Shown here one piece after another: positions 1 through 4,248 of a stretch of 4,248 bases of DNA. Numbering within the stretch: position 1 is the first letter of the stretch; each line of letters opens with the position of its first letter. Location: the IMG/VR virus record IMGVR_UViG_3300014970_000027, one strand, 5' to 3'. Source of the stretch: a virus (Duplodnaviria > Heunggongvirae > Uroviricota > Caudoviricetes). The translations under genes were made by a program, and so were the position numbers. Under the pieces are notes generated by a model that was given only the letters and a program-made list of their open reading frames with translations, was not told where the DNA came from and searched no databases.

Positions 1-164
1 ACGCAAAAGTTTATGTTGAAGGCGCATGGAATCGGGTTACGAATAAAAAAGGTAATACTTCACTTTATGATCACAATAATAACACTTCAGACTACAGCAA
101 AAATGGAGCAGGTATAGAAAACTATAACTTCATCACTACTGCTGGTCTTAAGTACACATTTTAA
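1..164 (+). CDS. ompT: Outer-membrane protease OmpT (omptin), 3' end only; 5' part lies outside the window
   Basis: The + frame that begins at position 3 is open from the window edge to a TAA stop at 162..164. It translates to AKVYVEGAWNRVTNKKGNTSLYDHNNNTSDYSKNGAGIENYNFITTAGLKYTF*, which I recognise as the C-terminus of E. coli OmpT. It is convergent with appY, as I recall for the E. coli K-12 locus. Confidence 0.85.
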   Translation, partial: AKVYVEGAWNRVTNKKGNTSLYDHNNNTSDYSKNGAGIENYNFITTAGLKYTF

Positions 165-182
165 GAACGCCAACTAAAATTT

Positions 183-207: not shown

Positions 208-538
208 AATAACTAGCCATTTCAATGTAACAATTAACCCTTAAAATAAACCCAGAAGGTTATTAACTAAATCACATAGAAAACCGGTAATGCTGTCAAC
301 TTGTTGATAACTATTTTAATCTGTAGTCATTCAATCCTTGTAACATCAGGATAATCCTAGTGTCAGTGAAAATACGAAATCAACAAGTTGGTATCATTAC
401 CTAGAAAACCATCAATTATAGTATGTATAAAATAGGCGACAGCAACCCAATTACAAATTAATGGTTCCAGAATATCACATCAGAAAAAACGCTGTATAAT
501 ATTATAATTAACATGTAGACAACTTGTAATAAACATTA

Positions 539-1288
539 TCAGTCAATTGTTTTGTTTATTCCATCTGTGACGCCGATTATTTTCTCAAAATAATGAGATG
601 GCGTGACACCATAATAATTTTTAAATGCACATATGAAATATGAAGTACTGTTATAGCCACATTTCTGGGCTACGACATTGATAGAATAAGAATTTGAAGT
701 TATGAGTTTTTTTGCATACCTCATCCTAGTATCTCTCAATATTTCAGTAAATGACGTTCCTTCATCCCTTAATCTTTTTTTTATTAAACTTTCACTCGTA
801 TAAATCAATTCCGCAATATCTTTTAAATGCCATTGCCGCTCAATATTAAAACTGATTATTCCAGTAATTTTACAGGTGAATGTATTTATATTTGTTAGTA
901 TAAAAGAATTTACACTTTCGCGTTTTTTGAACATGGCAAGTAAGGATATACATAGTCTTTCTTTTAACCAAAGGGAGTGTGAGTCTGCTATTTTAATCCC
1001 TTCAAACAGAGAAAAAACAAGCGATAATGGAGGTTCCTCTTCAGCAATATAGCCATTCTTATCAAGAGTAAATTTGCCAGGCAGCTCATTATTCACGTCG
1101 ATAAAAAAGGATAAACATGTTTTCTTATCTATATCAACAATTCTTAGTTTAGAGGGGCATACTGGTAACTCCCTTCTAATTTTGTCGCTTACAATAAACA
1201 ATGAATTTTTTTTGAACGAGATAACTCTCCTGTTTATAATTAAATCAAATGATTGACAGATGAAAACTACGGAGCAAACATAATCCAT
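539..1288 (-). CDS. appY: AraC-family transcriptional activator AppY (249 aa)
   Basis: Complete ORF from ATG at 1288..1286 to its stop, preceded by an AGGTGCAGG Shine-Dalgarno-like sequence. The translation begins [27 protein letters not shown], which I recognise as E. coli AppY. The C-terminal ~100 aa has the typical AraC/XylS double helix-turn-helix region (...[40 protein letters not shown]...[23 protein letters not shown]). The gene is AT-rich (about 32% GC in a hand-counted 60-nt sample at 601..660). Confidence 0.9.
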
Positions 1289-1860
1289 CCTGCACCTATC
1301 ATAAAATTAAAACAAGTTGATAGCAGTCAAATAACAACCAATTAAATACACAATCATAATCAGGATGATGTGCATTTATATTTTTATACACAAAATTATA
1401 GTTTGCAAATTTTAATAAATTTCATTTAAGATTAAATTATTATATGTATATTCTTTTTTATTCTAACGTATTTCAAAGTTACATTTTTCAACGCTTACTA
1501 TACTTTTTATTAACATAAACTCACTACAACGCACCTGAAACCTCTTGCTATATATATGTCAACCGTTTGAATTTAAAATAAAAAGAGTATCATTTTTACT
1601 TGCATTTCTTATCAAGTCACATTCAACAACAGTAAAAAAACATTATTAGAACCATTCAATTAACAAAAAACCAACATCCAGCTTGCTTAATTTTTCTTTA
1701 TTAAACGATATTGAAAATCAATTGATAAAATACATCTAAACAACCTTTTGGGGCGCAAAAGCATAACATCAAACAAACAAATAACACACCGAAAAAACTC
1801 ACAATTAATAACCTATGATATACATACTGTTTATTATGGTTGAATAAGCCACTCGATATC
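1289..1860 (-). promoter_or_regulatory. Extremely AT-rich, ORF-free upstream/leader region of appY; presumed promoter and nucleoid-protein (H-NS-type) silencing region
   Basis: The six-frame track shows no ORF of 60 aa or more on either strand. A hand-counted 60-nt sample at 1381..1440 is about 12% GC. The region sits directly 5' of the appY start on the - strand. Exact -35/-10 elements were not assigned. Confidence 0.5.
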
Positions 1861-1913
1861 TGGTGCTACGGAAGTGTCCACACGGTTTAGCAGCACCCGA
1901 TACTTTTTCCAGG

Positions 1914-1923
1914 NNNNNNNNNN
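1914..1923. other. Run of 10 ambiguous bases (N); assembly gap or masked sequence
   Basis: Literal nnnnnnnnnn in the sequence, located in the intergenic region 50 nt downstream (on the - strand) of the 97-aa gene stop. Confidence 0.99.
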
Positions 1924-1972
1924 AAGAAAAATTTAGTTTTCTTCCTCCGTTGCATATACAGCTCACCTTTTT

Positions 1973-2266
1973 TCACCCACGATTAACCAACAGCCAGACC
2001 AGCAGACACGCCACCACCGGCACAGCAAAATCCATCAGGCTTGCCACATCCCATGCACGTGTATCAAAACCGCCCCACCACGGCATATTCATTCGCTTGC
2101 CATGCCCGAACATTTCGATCCAGCGATATTCTGCCTGGGTGTGTTCACGCGCAATGAAGAACGTACAACCGGCTATCGCCCCGTAAGCCCAGTTTCCGGT
2201 AAAAAGACCAACCAGTACCTGCGCAGCCACAGCACAAAGTGCATGAAGGAAAGGTGTTATATCCAT
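1973..2266 (-). CDS. Small predicted multi-pass membrane protein (97 aa), unknown function; last gene of the tail-fibre operon
   Basis: ATG at 2266..2264 is preceded by a strong Shine-Dalgarno sequence (AAGGAGG, complement of 2271..2276) with a 4-nt spacer, 10 nt after the stop of the upstream 234-aa gene. The translation has two long hydrophobic stretches (about residues 9-38, ALCAVAAQVLVGLFTGNWAYGAIAGCTFFIA, and about 75-93, LMDFAVPVVACLLVWLLV) separated by a charged, aromatic-rich loop (REHTQAEYRWIEMFGHGKRMNMPWWGGFDTRAWD). No lipobox was found. Confidence 0.6.
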   Translation of the reverse strand: MDITPFLHALCAVAAQVLVGLFTGNWAYGAIAGCTFFIAREHTQAEYRWIEMFGHGKRMNMPWWGGFDTRAWDVASLMDFAVPVVACLLVWLLVNRG

Positions 2267-2276: not shown

Positions 2277-2981
2277 TTATCCGATATCGCTTCGGGAAGT
2301 TAATAACAACTTTAATTCTGACTCAAGTTCATCAACTCTTTCAGTCAGTTTCTGGATATGGTGAATCAGTGGAACAACCAGACGTTCGTACATTACACCT
2401 TCGGCAACAAGGCCATTGCTGGAAATAGCTTCAGGAGCATCATCTTCGTTAGCTGGTCGCCAGTGTACAAACTGAGGGGCAATTTCTCCTACTTCCTCGG
2501 CAATCAATCCGTAGAACCCCCAGTCACGCCTGTCATTTTCGCATTGCGACCTGTACCACACAGGGCGCATCCTGAAAATGACATCGGCGTGCTCTGAATC
2601 TATCGTCTCTACTGAATGTTTATAGCGAATAGACGATGTTGACCGCAGTACAGACGAAATTGCAGGGTCAGGATTAAGATAAAGGTTTGCCGCCGCTGTA
2701 GTCGTGCCCAATCCCCACAAATAAAACGCTTCACGGCCAGTCAACGGGTAAAAATCTCCACCATAACGACCGCTTTCCAGATCGTTCACTTCCAGTTTGT
2801 TTTTCAGCTTATTATCAACTTCAGTTTTTGTGTATCTGGTACTGATATCCTGCTTTGCACTGGTCATATCAGTCTGAAGCGTTGATACTTTTCCGTTAAT
2901 TGAGGAAATATCTTCCTTAGTTTTACTGACATCTCCCTTTAGCGTGGTGATATCTCCTGGAATTACTGTCGATGTAGCCAT
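2277..2981 (-). CDS. 234-aa protein: N-terminal coiled-coil region plus C-terminal intramolecular-chaperone-like domain (peptidase S74 / 'chaperone of endosialidase' type); probable short fibre or fibre-tip protein
   Basis: ATG at 2981..2979 with a GAGGGAG Shine-Dalgarno sequence immediately upstream, overlapping the stop of the 93-aa gene. Residues ~10-70 are heptad-like and rich in K/E/D/S/T (DITTLKGDVSKTKEDISSINGKVSTLQTDMTSAKQDISTRYTKTEVDNKLKNKLEVNDLES). Residues 116-234 carry the motifs I associate with the self-cleaving C-terminal chaperone domain of phage tail fibres/tailspikes: S-x-x-R-x-K (S116-S-I-R119-Y-K121, nt 2619..2636), then PVWY, GFYGLIAEEVGEIAPQFV, and YERLVVPLIHHIQKLTERVDELESELKLL. 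Confidence 0.7.
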   Translation of the reverse strand: MATSTVIPGDITTLKGDVSKTKEDISSINGKVSTLQTDMTSAKQDISTRYTKTEVDNKLKNKLEVNDLESGRYGGDFYPLTGREAFYLWGLGTTTAAANLYLNPDPAISSVLRSTSSIRYKHSVETIDSEHADVIFRMRPVWYRSQCENDRRDWGFYGLIAEEVGEIAPQFVHWRPANEDDAPEAISSNGLVAEGVMYERLVVPLIHHIQKLTERVDELESELKLLLTSRSDIG

Positions 2982-2985
2982 TTGT

Positions 2986-2992
2986 CTCCCTC
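2986..2992 (-). promoter_or_regulatory. Shine-Dalgarno sequence for the 234-aa gene, overlapping the stop codon of the 93-aa gene
   Basis: The - strand reads TGAGGGAGACAA-ATG, a 9-nt intergenic spacer. Confidence 0.55.
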
Positions 2993-3272
2993 ACATCCAG
3001 CCACGAAGTTGATGCTCAACAACAACCGCGTATTTATCGAATATTGACGATTTTTTTGCATCATTAATGATGCGCACGTTTACAAAATATCCGTCTTCCT
3101 TAACACATACCGGTTCGCCATCTTCAGTCAGTTCTCCGGTTTCTTTGTACACGTTACCTATCACGTCAATAAGAATATCATCCTGCATCGACTCGTCATC
3201 ATAATAGCCAATACTCTCCATAAAGGCCGAAAAGTCGGCCCTGTCTGCAAATTTGAGTGTTAAATCTTTCAT
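2991..3272 (-). CDS. Small acidic hypothetical protein (93 aa), translationally coupled between the tail-fibre gene and the 234-aa gene
   Basis: Its ATG (3272..3270) overlaps the TGA stop of the tail-fibre gene (3271..3269) in an ATGA arrangement. A GGGGGAG Shine-Dalgarno sequence lies 8 nt upstream (complement of 3281..3287). The translation MKDLTLKFADRADFSAFMESIGYYDDESMQDDILIDVIGNVYKETGELTEDGEPVCVKEDGYFVNVRIINDAKKSSIFDKYAVVVEHQLRGWM is strongly acidic and has no hydrophobic segment. I recognise no family. Confidence 0.6.
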   Translation of the reverse strand: MKDLTLKFADRADFSAFMESIGYYDDESMQDDILIDVIGNVYKETGELTEDGEPVCVKEDGYFVNVRIINDAKKSSIFDKYAVVVEHQLRGWM

Positions 3273-4248
3273 TTAATACTCTCCCCCATTTGCGCATCAG
3301 TTAATTCTTTATGCCAGATACGCAGATTACGGATATGACCAAAAAGATGATACTCCCCATTAGTGCCCTGCCCTCCAATTCGCAATACTGCCCGTGGAAC
3401 AATTGAAGTCCATGTTGTTTTTGCCGCAACAGATAATTCACCATTACATACGGCCTGAACATCTCCATCAGCGCCACAACGGAAGCCTGAAATGATTTTC
3501 CTCTGGGTTGTTGCCACATATTTATTACACCCTCCCATAGAAATAAAAGGAGAACCGGCATCAGAGAAATTATTACCACGGAATCCATGCGTGAACAGAC
3601 CATTTTCCTGATAATCTTTAACATTAAAGATTAATGGTGATTTGCTGGGAGGGATATCCCAGTTTTTATTAACTTCAACAAGAGCACTGAATGGTAATCG
3701 GTGAATATTGTTTCTTACAGGTATTGTCACCATGTCGCTGGAGCGAGTGCCAGGAGCCCCTTCAGTAATGATAAATGACGTCCTGTACGACCCAATCTCC
3801 GCCTGAGGCATCGCAATATCTAACGTAGAGCCATTGGGGATAATACTGATTCCAGGCATCGCCAGGATTTCAAATCTTGAGCTGATTATCATTTCCGCAT
3901 CTGCAAAAAGAGTGGCGGTAAACAACCACCATTCACCGACTCTTTCTGCCGTCACCGTCACATTATTTCCATGAACAACATTTCCCGTAACAGGATCCAG
4001 AGCTGCATCTGAATGAAAAACAAACGCACCATTATCAGACATTTTTCCGAACCTTGCACGACACCGGGAATTATCACTTTTCGTCAGACACGATATCGTC
4101 GTATAAGAACCTGCCGGGCAGGTGTAAGCATCATTCGTGTTTACAGCAATTGCCTGATATCCTTGTGCTGTCGGATTTTCATTAATAACAGTTATCCTTC
4201 CATAGTTAAACCCCTTATCACTGTCGAACGACTCAACAGACACACTAA
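3269..4248 (-). CDS. Phage tail-fibre / host-specificity protein, C-terminal region with lectin-like (LamG/concanavalin-A-like) distal domain; 5' end probably outside the window
   Basis: The reading frame is open to the window edge; the first in-window candidate start is a GTG at 4243..4241, so the gene is probably longer. Stop is TGA at 3271..3269. The C-terminal sequence ...RIGGQGTNGEYHLFGHIRNLRIWHKELTDAQM resembles the terminal signature of LamG_3-type jelly-roll domains (F-x-G-x-I-D-E-V-R-I-Y-N-R-A-L-S-x-x-E-I). The translation is rich in G/S/T/N and beta-strand-like. About 52% GC in a hand-counted sample at 2401..2460 of the same module. Confidence 0.7.
   Translation of the reverse strand, partial: SVSVESFDSDKGFNYGRITVINENPTAQGYQAIAVNTNDAYTCPAGSYTTISCLTKSDNSRCRARFGKMSDNGAFVFHSDAALDPVTGNVVHGNNVTVTAERVGEWWLFTATLFADAEMIISSRFEILAMPGISIIPNGSTLDIAMPQAEIGSYRTSFIITEGAPGTRSSDMVTIPVRNNIHRLPFSALVEVNKNWDIPPSKSPLIFNVKDYQENGLFTHGFRGNNFSDAGSPFISMGGCNKYVATTQRKIISGFRCGADGDVQAVCNGELSVAAKTTWTSIVPRAVLRIGGQGTNGEYHLFGHIRNLRIWHKELTDAQMGESIK

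What the first reader, a model, noticed from the sequence alone, without database searches (positions are those of the whole stretch)
1860..1972. Abrupt compositional junction between the phage module and the AT-rich appY island
Hand-counted GC content drops from about 52% (2401..2460) in the fibre module to about 12% (1381..1440) in the appY upstream region. The transition falls within roughly 100 nt just downstream of the 97-aa gene stop. This suggests a recombination or insertion boundary that joins a tail-fibre module of one origin to the AT-rich appY/ompT cargo. The sequence directly at the boundary is partly unknown (N-run), and a short inverted repeat (AAGAAAA...TTTTCTT, 1924..1943) abuts it.
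Basis: seen in the sequence. Interest (0 to 1): 0.45.

Follow-up and report, generated by a model that had tools for sequence, protein, structure and literature searches.

The report
Prophage tail-fibre/cargo seam at appY
The GC drop is real and marks the ordinary seam in a DLP12-type E. coli prophage where the tail-fibre genes end in a dead tail-fibre-assembly gene fragment and the AT-rich accessory genes appY and ompT begin.

Summary
The composition step is real, but it lies at 1847/1848, just left of the reported interval. GC is 25% across 1289-1847 and 47% across 1848-1953. The 97-aa gene is 53%.

It is the homologue of K-12 tfaX and matches Pfam Caudo_TAP. The step falls exactly where this relic stops resembling other tfa alleles.

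The locus is the right arm of a DLP12-type lambdoid prophage: Stf, 93 aa, 234 aa (S74 chaperone), 97 aa, tfa relic, AT-rich region, appY, ompT. Two deposited phage genomes, Kati and PhiR68_2, carry tfa relic, appY and ompT; in Kati, whose record reaches that far, an integrase gene lies just beyond ompT. The cargo therefore lies inside the phage, where lambda has its b region. There is no att site or integrase remnant at this junction.

The relic/AT-rich seam is unchanged in 832 of 5426 complete E. coli genomes. The variable breakpoints lie further right, at about 1954, 2267 and 3273.

The N-run and the 11 bases beside it are the window's only substantive difference from strain ECCWS199. Those bases were found in no other genome, so an assembly artefact is likely. 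The inverted repeat is at chance level.

Verdict: ordinary and already known in kind.

The parts
1..165 (+). 3' end of ompT (omptin outer-membrane protease)
   Evidence: 100% identical to the annotated ompT of ECCWS199 and K-12. In about 2300 genomes that lack appY, homology ends at 167-169.
539..1288 (-). appY, an AraC-family transcriptional activator (249 aa, intact here)
   Evidence: ORF. Pfam HTH_18 and HTH_AraC. Annotated as appY in relatives. GC 31.6%.
1289..1847 (-). AT-rich region upstream of appY (25.2% GC), presumed appY promoter and regulatory DNA
   Evidence: Composition. 99-100% identical in all DLP12-locus genomes examined and in phages Kati and PhiR68_2. Absent from the Qin- and Rac-type prophages that share the fibre module. 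The promoter scan was not above chance. Regulation by H-NS, ArcA and RpoS is taken from PMC10057817.
1834..1953 (-). Relic 3' end of a tail-fibre assembly gene (tfa; homologue of K-12 tfaX). Stop codon at 1834-1836. Homology to other tfa alleles ends at 1848.
   Evidence: 1834-1911 translates to WKKYRVLLNRVDTSVAPDIEWLIQP*. It matches Pfam Caudo_TAP positions 106-130 of 131, E = 2.7e-10. The N-free relative gives ATEEENSLLEAWKKYRV..., positions 95-130, E = 2.7e-15. PGAP annotates it as an incomplete tail fiber assembly protein. Alignment A2.
1914..1934 (.). 10-N run plus 11 private bases (AAGAAAAATTT) that replace 12 bases found in relatives (13 if the shared A at 1935 is counted); probable scaffold or assembly artefact
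   Evidence: ECCWS199 is otherwise identical over the 4.2 kb, apart from a 1-nt indel at 775 and an end-of-alignment mismatch at 4248. It has CTTCCAGCAACGA here. No match covers these bases in 1711 E. coli records. No exact match in the species-representative genomes or in metagenomes.
1954..1972 (-). Spacer between the 97-aa stop and the tfa relic; the junction where the 97-aa cassette truncates tfa
   Evidence: It is shared by the DLP12-, Qin- and Rac-located copies aligned, and K-12-type sequences diverge exactly here. 1679 genomes carry the stretch 1935-1995 with at least 80% of the query covered.
1973..2266 (-). 97-aa ORF with two strongly hydrophobic segments, function unknown (53.1% GC)
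   Evidence: ORF. phrog_1443, E = 1.7e-58. No Pfam or NCBIfam family. 469 homologues, all named 'hypothetical'. Hydrophobic stretches at about 3-24 and 72-96.
2277..2981 (-). 234-aa tail-fibre-domain protein with a Peptidase_S74 intramolecular chaperone domain
   Evidence: Pfam PF13884, E = 4.9e-6, above the curated cut-off. Tail-fibre PHROGs. PGAP name 'tail fiber domain-containing protein'.
2991..3272 (-). 93-aa phage ORF of unknown function within the fibre module
   Evidence: phrog_1361, E = 1e-46. Conserved position in relatives.
3269..4248 (-). C-terminal part of the side tail fibre protein (Stf; the ORF runs off the window)
   Evidence: phrog_1419 'tail protein', positions 465-793 of 793. 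In ECCWS199 it belongs to a 782-aa 'prophage tail fiber N-terminal domain-containing protein'.

Best explanation
The junction is the downstream end of the late (tail-fibre) operon of a DLP12-type lambdoid prophage.

Window 1834-1953 (- strand) is a dead fragment holding the last roughly 36-40 codons of a tail-fibre assembly gene, tfa. To its right sits a fibre-tip cassette that has replaced the 5' two-thirds of tfa. The cassette comprises Stf, a 93-aa protein, a 234-aa protein with an S74 self-chaperoning domain, and a 97-aa hydrophobic protein.

To its left, from 1847 downward, begins AT-rich accessory DNA. This is appY with a roughly 550-bp upstream region, followed by ompT. It occupies the place of the lambda b region, between the fibre genes and attP-int.

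Shown: the anatomy, the homology end-points, the population counts and carriage of the cargo by deposited phage genomes.

Inferred: the composition step records an old illegitimate join of AT-rich 'moron' DNA inside the last codons of tfa. That join has since been inherited unchanged. Present-day strain-to-strain mosaicism comes from homologous exchange within the conserved tfa 3' segment and at gene boundaries in the fibre module. The N-run and its 11 neighbouring bases are an assembly artefact at this multi-copy repeat.
For: - The tfa relic is seen in the window's own sequence (Caudo_TAP, E = 2.7e-10), in the N-free relative and in the PGAP annotation.
- The GC change-point at 1847 coincides with the end of homology to other tfa alleles at 1848.
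- Deposited phage genomes Kati and PhiR68_2 carry stf, tfa, an invertase, a methyltransferase, the tfa relic, the AT-rich region, appY and ompT; Kati's record also shows an integrase gene just beyond ompT.
- The K-12 annotation includes appY and ompT inside DLP12.
- 832 genomes carry the relic/AT-rich seam at 95-100% identity. 236 carry the 97-aa cassette next to it.
- The same cassette plus relic lies in Qin-type and Rac-type prophages with different downstream cargo. The tfa 3' part is only 83-86% identical there.
- Segment-by-segment identity shows further breakpoints at about 1954, 2267 and 3273.
- The window equals ECCWS199 except for a 1-nt indel at 775, an end-of-alignment mismatch at 4248, and the stretch 1914-1934.
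Against: - The mechanism of the original join cannot be observed.
- No genome was found with an intact tfa directly upstream of appY, so the ancestral state is inferred.
- The exact crossover point inside the relic (somewhere in 1870-1953) rests on only three informative positions.
- That the 234-aa S74 protein makes Tfa dispensable is inferred from the domain assignment, not tested.
- The private 11 bases could be a real strain-specific change.
- Many of the 832 genomes are K-12 laboratory derivatives, so the count overstates independent lineages.
Confidence: 0.85

Rival explanations
1. The junction is the edge of an independent genomic island (appY/ompT) that integrated next to the prophage using its own att site and integrase, as the reader suggested looking for.
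For: Sharp GC step. A 30-nt imperfect inverted repeat flanks appY at 407-436 and 1812-1841.
Against: That repeat has 23 of 30 matches, and 15 of 60 simulated sequences do as well or better. No integrase or tRNA gene lies in the window. In phage Kati the integrase gene and a tRNA-like feature lie on the far side of ompT, and the cargo lies within that deposited phage genome. The K-12 DLP12 annotation spans appY and ompT.
Confidence: 0.03
2. The junction is a scaffolding artefact: the N-run joins two contigs that are not adjacent in the real genome.
For: The 10-N run sits at the junction. The bases next to it match nothing. The flanking tfa-relic/97-aa stretch (1935-1995) occurs up to 4 times per genome, a typical place for contigs to break.
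Against: 236 complete genomes have the same adjacency in continuous sequence. ECCWS199 is 100% identical on both sides. Only about 21 nt are in doubt, not the adjacency.
Confidence: 0.03
3. The AT-richness is only that of an intergenic regulatory region, with no difference in origin.
For: 1289-1833 is non-coding, and intergenic DNA is usually more AT-rich than coding DNA.
Against: The appY coding sequence is itself 31.6% GC. Homology to other prophages carrying the same fibre module stops exactly at the step. About 2300 of the genomes that carry the ompT 3' end lack the appY cassette.
Confidence: 0.05
4. 1868-1975 (- strand) encodes a small RNA of the Rfam IS009 family.
For: Rfam hit to RF02111, E = 0.0011.
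Against: The score is 27.6 bits against a gathering score of 117. The family's K-12 member lies inside the tfaD coding sequence. The hit therefore reflects only tfa sequence homology.
Confidence: 0.02

Closest known systems
Right arm of E. coli K-12 cryptic prophage DLP12 (tfaX - appY - ompT)
   Same: Same order and orientation of tfa relic, AT-rich region, appY and ompT. Identity is 99.2% over window 402-1913. The window's relic continues K-12 tfaX directly: TfaX matches Caudo_TAP positions 75-105 and the window matches 106-130.
   Different: K-12 has a longer relic with a TGA stop where the window has TGG. Upstream of it K-12 has the ybcY methyltransferase pseudogene and tfaD. The window instead has the 97-aa/234-aa/93-aa/Stf cassette from 1954 onward.
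Phage lambda b region and phage 'morons' (accessory genes placed after the late operon)
   Same: The cargo lies between the end of the tail-fibre genes and attP-int. Its composition differs from the phage body. appY is treated in the literature as a prophage gene that benefits the host (PMC10057817).
   Different: The cargo genes are different. An autonomous promoter and terminator, part of the classical moron definition, were not demonstrated here.
Tail-fibre module shuffling through conserved tfa and fibre segments in lambdoid, P2 and Mu-like phages (established from my own knowledge of the literature, e.g. Haggard-Ljungquist 1992, Sandmeier 1994; not read here)
   Same: A 16-nt stretch, GCAACGGAGGAAGAAA, is invariant in all nine sequences aligned, and the tfa 3' segment after it is well conserved. 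They separate different fibre cassettes from different downstream cargo. Some prophages carry chains of tfa relics.
   Different: Here tfa is no longer a gene, only a relic of about 120 nt.

Membership tests
Tail-fibre assembly protein gene (Pfam PF02413 Caudo_TAP) | Sequence match to the family profile above the curated cut-off | tested here: met
   Window 1837-1911: 41 bits against a cut-off of 22.1, E = 2.7e-10, profile positions 106-130 of 131. The N-free relative: 57 bits, positions 95-130.
Tail-fibre assembly protein gene (Pfam PF02413 Caudo_TAP) | Complete ORF covering the whole domain, as in the 191-aa Tfa of phage Kati | tested here: not met
   Only the last roughly 36-40 codons remain, and there is no start codon. 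The window also has an in-frame TAA and the N-run. It is therefore a relic or pseudogene, as PGAP annotates it.
DLP12-type lambdoid prophage, right arm | Synteny of tfa relic, appY, ompT (then envY, ybcH, nfrA outside the prophage) | tested here: met
   The window matches K-12 and ECCWS199 loci that have this order.
DLP12-type lambdoid prophage, right arm | Integration at the argU tRNA gene with a DLP12-type integrase | not testable with these tools
   This lies outside the 4.2-kb window. In a degraded B2-strain version, int' and tRNA-Arg flank the locus.
Phage moron / b-region-like cargo | Located between the end of the late operon and attP-int inside a phage genome | tested here: met
   Phage Kati shows it fully: tfa relic, appY, ompT, then a tRNA-like feature and an integrase gene. 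PhiR68_2 carries tfa relic, appY and ompT close to the end of its linear record, where no integrase is listed.
Phage moron / b-region-like cargo | Composition distinct from the phage body | tested here: met
   GC is 25-32% against 43-53%. Change-point 2*deltalnL = 95.6.
Phage moron / b-region-like cargo | Own promoter and terminator, giving expression from the repressed prophage | tested here: inconclusive
   The consensus scan found 4 promoter-like sites against 4.4 expected, and no terminator. The literature reports regulated appY expression in K-12 lysogens (PMC10057817, PMC11228462).
Integrative genomic island with its own att and integrase at this junction | Flanking direct repeats (att) and an integrase gene or remnant | tested here: not met
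   Only chance-level repeats were found. There is no integrase ORF or tRNA gene in the window.
Rfam IS009 small RNA | Score at or above the family's gathering threshold | tested here: not met
   27.6 bits against 117.

The most novel reading that the evidence does not exclude
The unit 'tfa 3' relic + AT-rich region + appY' may move between lambdoid prophages as one cassette. It would recombine through the conserved tfa segment on one side and just past the ompT stop codon on the other. The relic would then be retained as a working recombination handle rather than as debris.

This fits three observations. The cassette is present in only about a quarter of ompT-bearing genomes. Its ends fall at 167-169 and within tfa. 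The DLP12-specific tfa allele always travels with appY.

A lesser possibility is that the 21-nt stretch 1914-1934 is a real strain-specific replacement.
Probability: 0.25. Interest if true: 0.25.

Novelty: already known. Interest (0 to 1): 0.1.

Why it matters
It matters little beyond annotation. The result shows that a sharp GC step beside an N-run is an ordinary, long-fixed prophage module seam. It corrects the boundary to 1847/1848 and identifies the unannotated stretch as a tfa relic. It also flags about 21 nt of the window as unreliable.

It illustrates how appY and ompT, two genes that affect E. coli physiology and virulence, ride in the accessory region of DLP12-like phages. Some of these have been deposited as complete phage genomes.

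Tried and rejected
- Exact-pattern scans for the bases beside the N-run found nothing in the species-representative genomes or in metagenomes. A megablast of 1924-1995 against 5426 E. coli genomes gave no match covering the first 11 bases. The content under the Ns could not be recovered.
- Att-like or terminal repeats were sought with the repeat finder.
- The Rfam scan gave only a sub-threshold IS009 hit. That family turned out to lie inside the tfaD coding sequence. No tRNA genes were found.
- The promoter and terminator scan of 1200-2300 was uninformative.
- The 97-aa protein has no Pfam or NCBIfam family. Its PHROG has no known function. A 5.8-billion-protein search returned only 'hypothetical protein'.
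- Literature searches for a published description of this exact junction found nothing specific. They yielded only general statements that appY is a DLP12 gene (PMC10057817) and that the context of ompT varies between strains (PMC6854850).
- My first hand count put the tfa stop at 1824. Translation showed the error, and the correct position is 1834-1836.

Full report
**What the window is**

On the + strand the window holds the last 165 nt of ompT. On the - strand it holds, in order:
- appY (539-1288);
- a long non-coding AT-rich stretch;
- a 97-aa ORF (1973-2266);
- a 234-aa ORF (2277-2981);
- a 93-aa ORF (2991-3272);
- the C-terminal part of a large ORF that runs off the window (3269-4248).

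Pfam assigns AraC-type HTH domains to appY and a Peptidase_S74 chaperone domain to the 234-aa protein. PHROGs assign the 234-aa protein and the large ORF to tail-fibre or tail families. The 97-aa and 93-aa proteins fall in phage families of unknown function.

The window is identical to the chromosome of E. coli ECCWS199 over all 4248 bases except for three things:
- a 1-nt indel at 775;
- an end-of-alignment mismatch at 4248;
- the stretch 1914-1934.

In ECCWS199 the locus runs nfrA, ybcH, envY, ompT, appY, 'tail fiber assembly protein (incomplete)', hypothetical protein, tail fiber domain protein, hypothetical protein, prophage tail fiber protein. This is the DLP12 prophage locus. In K-12 the annotated DLP12 feature includes tfaX, appY and ompT and ends before envY.

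**The observation**

The N-run is 1914-1923.

A likelihood scan for one change-point places it at 1847. GC is 30.1% to the left and 44.8% to the right, with 2*deltalnL = 95.6. No further split passed the threshold I set.

GC by feature:

| Segment | GC |
|---|---|
| 1289-1847 | 25.2% |
| 1848-1953 | 46.9% |
| 1954-1972 (19-nt spacer) | 31.6% |
| 97-aa gene | 53.1% |

The step is real and abrupt. It sits 13 nt left of the reported interval, which at 43.7% GC is already on the high-GC side.

The 7-nt inverted repeat exists but is not above chance. The window has 6 such repeats, against 3.0 +/- 2.0 in simulated sequences.

**What lies in the interval**

Read on the - strand, 1834-1911 translates to WKKYRVLLNRVDTSVAPDIEWLIQP*. 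This matches the last 25 positions of Pfam Caudo_TAP, the tail-fibre assembly protein family (E = 2.7e-10, 41 bits, cut-off 22.1).

In ECCWS199, which has no Ns, the frame continues upstream as ATEEENSLLEA. The match then covers profile positions 95-130 (E = 2.7e-15).

The K-12 tfaX ORF covers positions 75-105 and ends at a TGA where the window has TGG. The window's relic is therefore the direct continuation of tfaX. The relic spans 1834-1953, and PGAP annotates it as an incomplete tail fiber assembly protein in every relative examined.

A weak Rfam hit to IS009 covers the same bases (27.6 bits against a gathering score of 117). The K-12 member of that family lies inside the tfaD coding sequence. 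The hit therefore only re-reports tfa homology.

**Where homology begins and ends**

A nine-way alignment and a segment-by-segment identity table show three boundaries.

1. At 1847/1848, inside the last five codons of the relic, the DLP12-type sequence stops resembling tfa alleles of other prophages. The endings are ...DIEW|LIQP* here, ...DIEW|PALP* in a Qin-type prophage and ...DIEW|PTNPVRE* in a Rac-type one. Left of this point the Qin- and Rac-type prophages share nothing with the window. This boundary coincides with the GC change-point.
2. Within 1848-1953 the DLP12 allele is 98.9-100% identical in all DLP12-locus genomes, including K-12. It is only 83-86% identical to the Qin and Rac copies. 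The 97-aa gene just to the right is 97-98% identical to those same copies. A 16-nt stretch, GCAACGGAGGAAGAAA, is invariant in all nine sequences.
3. At 1953/1954 the K-12-type sequences continue as tfa (...DAVDLEI|ATEEE). All genomes carrying the 97-aa cassette switch here to a 19-nt spacer followed by the 97-aa stop codon.

Further right, EC11 diverges at about 2267, and ST70 and Z1002 diverge at about 3273. The fibre module is therefore itself a string of exchangeable cassettes with breakpoints at gene ends.

**Population picture** (5426 complete E. coli genomes)

| Feature | Genomes |
|---|---|
| appY upstream region present (any match to 1500-1913) | 848 |
| At least 80% of 1500-1913 matched (the relic/AT-rich seam), mostly >=99% identical | 832 |
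| 97-aa gene joined to the seam, as in the window | 236 |
| 97-aa-end/tfa-relic stretch (1935-1995) present, up to four copies per genome | 1679 |
| ompT 3' end present | 3115 |
| ompT continuing into appY | 828 |

- Among the loci examined, those without the 97-aa gene next to the seam are K-12-type.
- In the genomes where ompT does not continue into appY, homology stops at 167-169, just past the ompT stop codon.
- A B2 strain has ompT, a methyltransferase, a tfa relic, int' and tRNA-Arg.
- O157:H7 carries ompT at a different locus.
- This agrees with the published note that the context of ompT differs between strains (PMC6854850).
- Many of the 832 genomes are K-12 laboratory derivatives, so the counts are not independent lineages.

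**The cargo is inside a phage**

Two records deposited as complete phage genomes carry the seam.
- Phage Kati has J, lom, stf, tfa, a DNA invertase, a methyltransferase, the tfa relic, the AT-rich region, appY, ompT, a tRNA-like feature and an integrase gene.
- PhiR68_2 has the same order up to ompT, which lies close to the end of its linear record.

The AT-rich genes thus occupy the position of the lambda b region, between the fibre genes and attP-int. That comparison with lambda is from my own knowledge.

No att or integrase remnant lies at the junction. The longest repeat flanking appY has 23 of 30 matches, and 15 of 60 simulated sequences equal or exceed it.

**How it most likely came about**

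Shown: the anatomy, the end-points and the counts above.

Inferred:
- AT-rich foreign DNA was joined by illegitimate recombination within the last codons of tfa in an ancestral DLP12-like phage. That seam has been inherited unchanged ever since.
- A fibre-tip cassette whose 234-aa protein carries its own S74 chaperone displaced most of tfa, leaving the relic. That this makes Tfa dispensable is a guess from the domain assignment.
- Different fibre cassettes were later brought next to the appY arm by homologous exchange within the conserved relic.
- appY is on the same strand as the late genes, so late-operon read-through into appY is possible. This was not tested.
- Published work describes appY as a DLP12 gene controlled by H-NS, ArcA, RpoS and DpiA/B. 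It affects acid resistance, biofilm formation and motility (PMC10057817), and it is induced after replication stress (PMC11228462).

**The N-run**

Relatives have CCAGG-CTTCCAGCAACGA-GTTTTCTTCC here. The window has CCAGG-N10-AAGAAAAATTTA-GTTTTCTTCC, which is 9 nt longer and introduces an in-frame TAA.

The 11 bases AAGAAAAATTT occur in this context in none of the 1711 matching E. coli records. They are also absent from the species-representative genomes and from metagenomes.

The rest of the window is identical to ECCWS199, and the break sits in a multi-copy repeat. A scaffolding or assembly artefact is therefore the most likely cause. A real private change is not excluded.

**Verdict**

This is a real and correctly sensed composition seam. 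Interest is low.

Noticed in passing
window 286-401 (flanking copies of TAGAAAACC at 277-285 and 402-410): A 116-bp insertion relative to K-12, with 23-nt imperfect terminal inverted repeats (GGTAATGCTGTCAACTTGTTGAT / ATCAACAAGTTGGTATCATTACC) and a 9-bp target duplication. The ends resemble the IS1 ends seen in TW10598 (19 and 20 of 23 positions, counted by eye), so it looks like an IS1-related miniature element. It occurs in only 35 of 5426 genomes, and 27 of its 41 copies are on plasmids.
   Followed up: partly
window 166-170: Homology to about 2300 ompT-bearing genomes ends at 167-169, immediately after the ompT stop codon. appY and its flanks are therefore a separate cassette from ompT, present in 828 of the 3115 genomes that carry the ompT 3' end. 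A B2 strain has ompT followed directly by a methyltransferase, a tfa relic, int' and tRNA-Arg.
   Followed up: partly
L002 (K-12) 5857-6055; window 1868-1975: The K-12 match to Rfam family IS009 (RF02111), at 227.8 bits, lies wholly inside the tfaD coding sequence. This family may describe a conserved tfa coding segment rather than a small RNA.
   Followed up: partly
window 775 (poly-T run in appY): ECCWS199 lacks one T here, and its appY is annotated as frameshifted. The window's appY is intact at 249 aa. Other relatives have IS1 inserted in or next to appY: EC11 and TW10598. appY seems to be disrupted often.
   Followed up: no
window 1973-2266: The 97-aa ORF has the highest GC in the window (53%). 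It has two strongly hydrophobic segments and no known function. Its homologues reach Salmonella, Citrobacter, Leclercia, Aeromonas and Comamonas. It takes the position normally held by tfa at the end of the fibre module.
   Followed up: partly
L004 3482-5016 (strain MEC2025-PR, prophage next to the trp operon): A chain of remnants follows the 97-aa gene: a tfa relic, a methyltransferase, a second tfa relic, a DUF4376 fragment and an ompW fragment. Repeated tfa relics appear to mark successive cargo additions. AMSHJX01 and phage Kati likewise carry an intact tfa plus a downstream relic.
   Followed up: no
window 2531-2583: A 24-nt inverted repeat, 79% complementary with a 5-nt loop, lies inside the 234-aa tail-fibre ORF. 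Its significance was not assessed.
   Followed up: no
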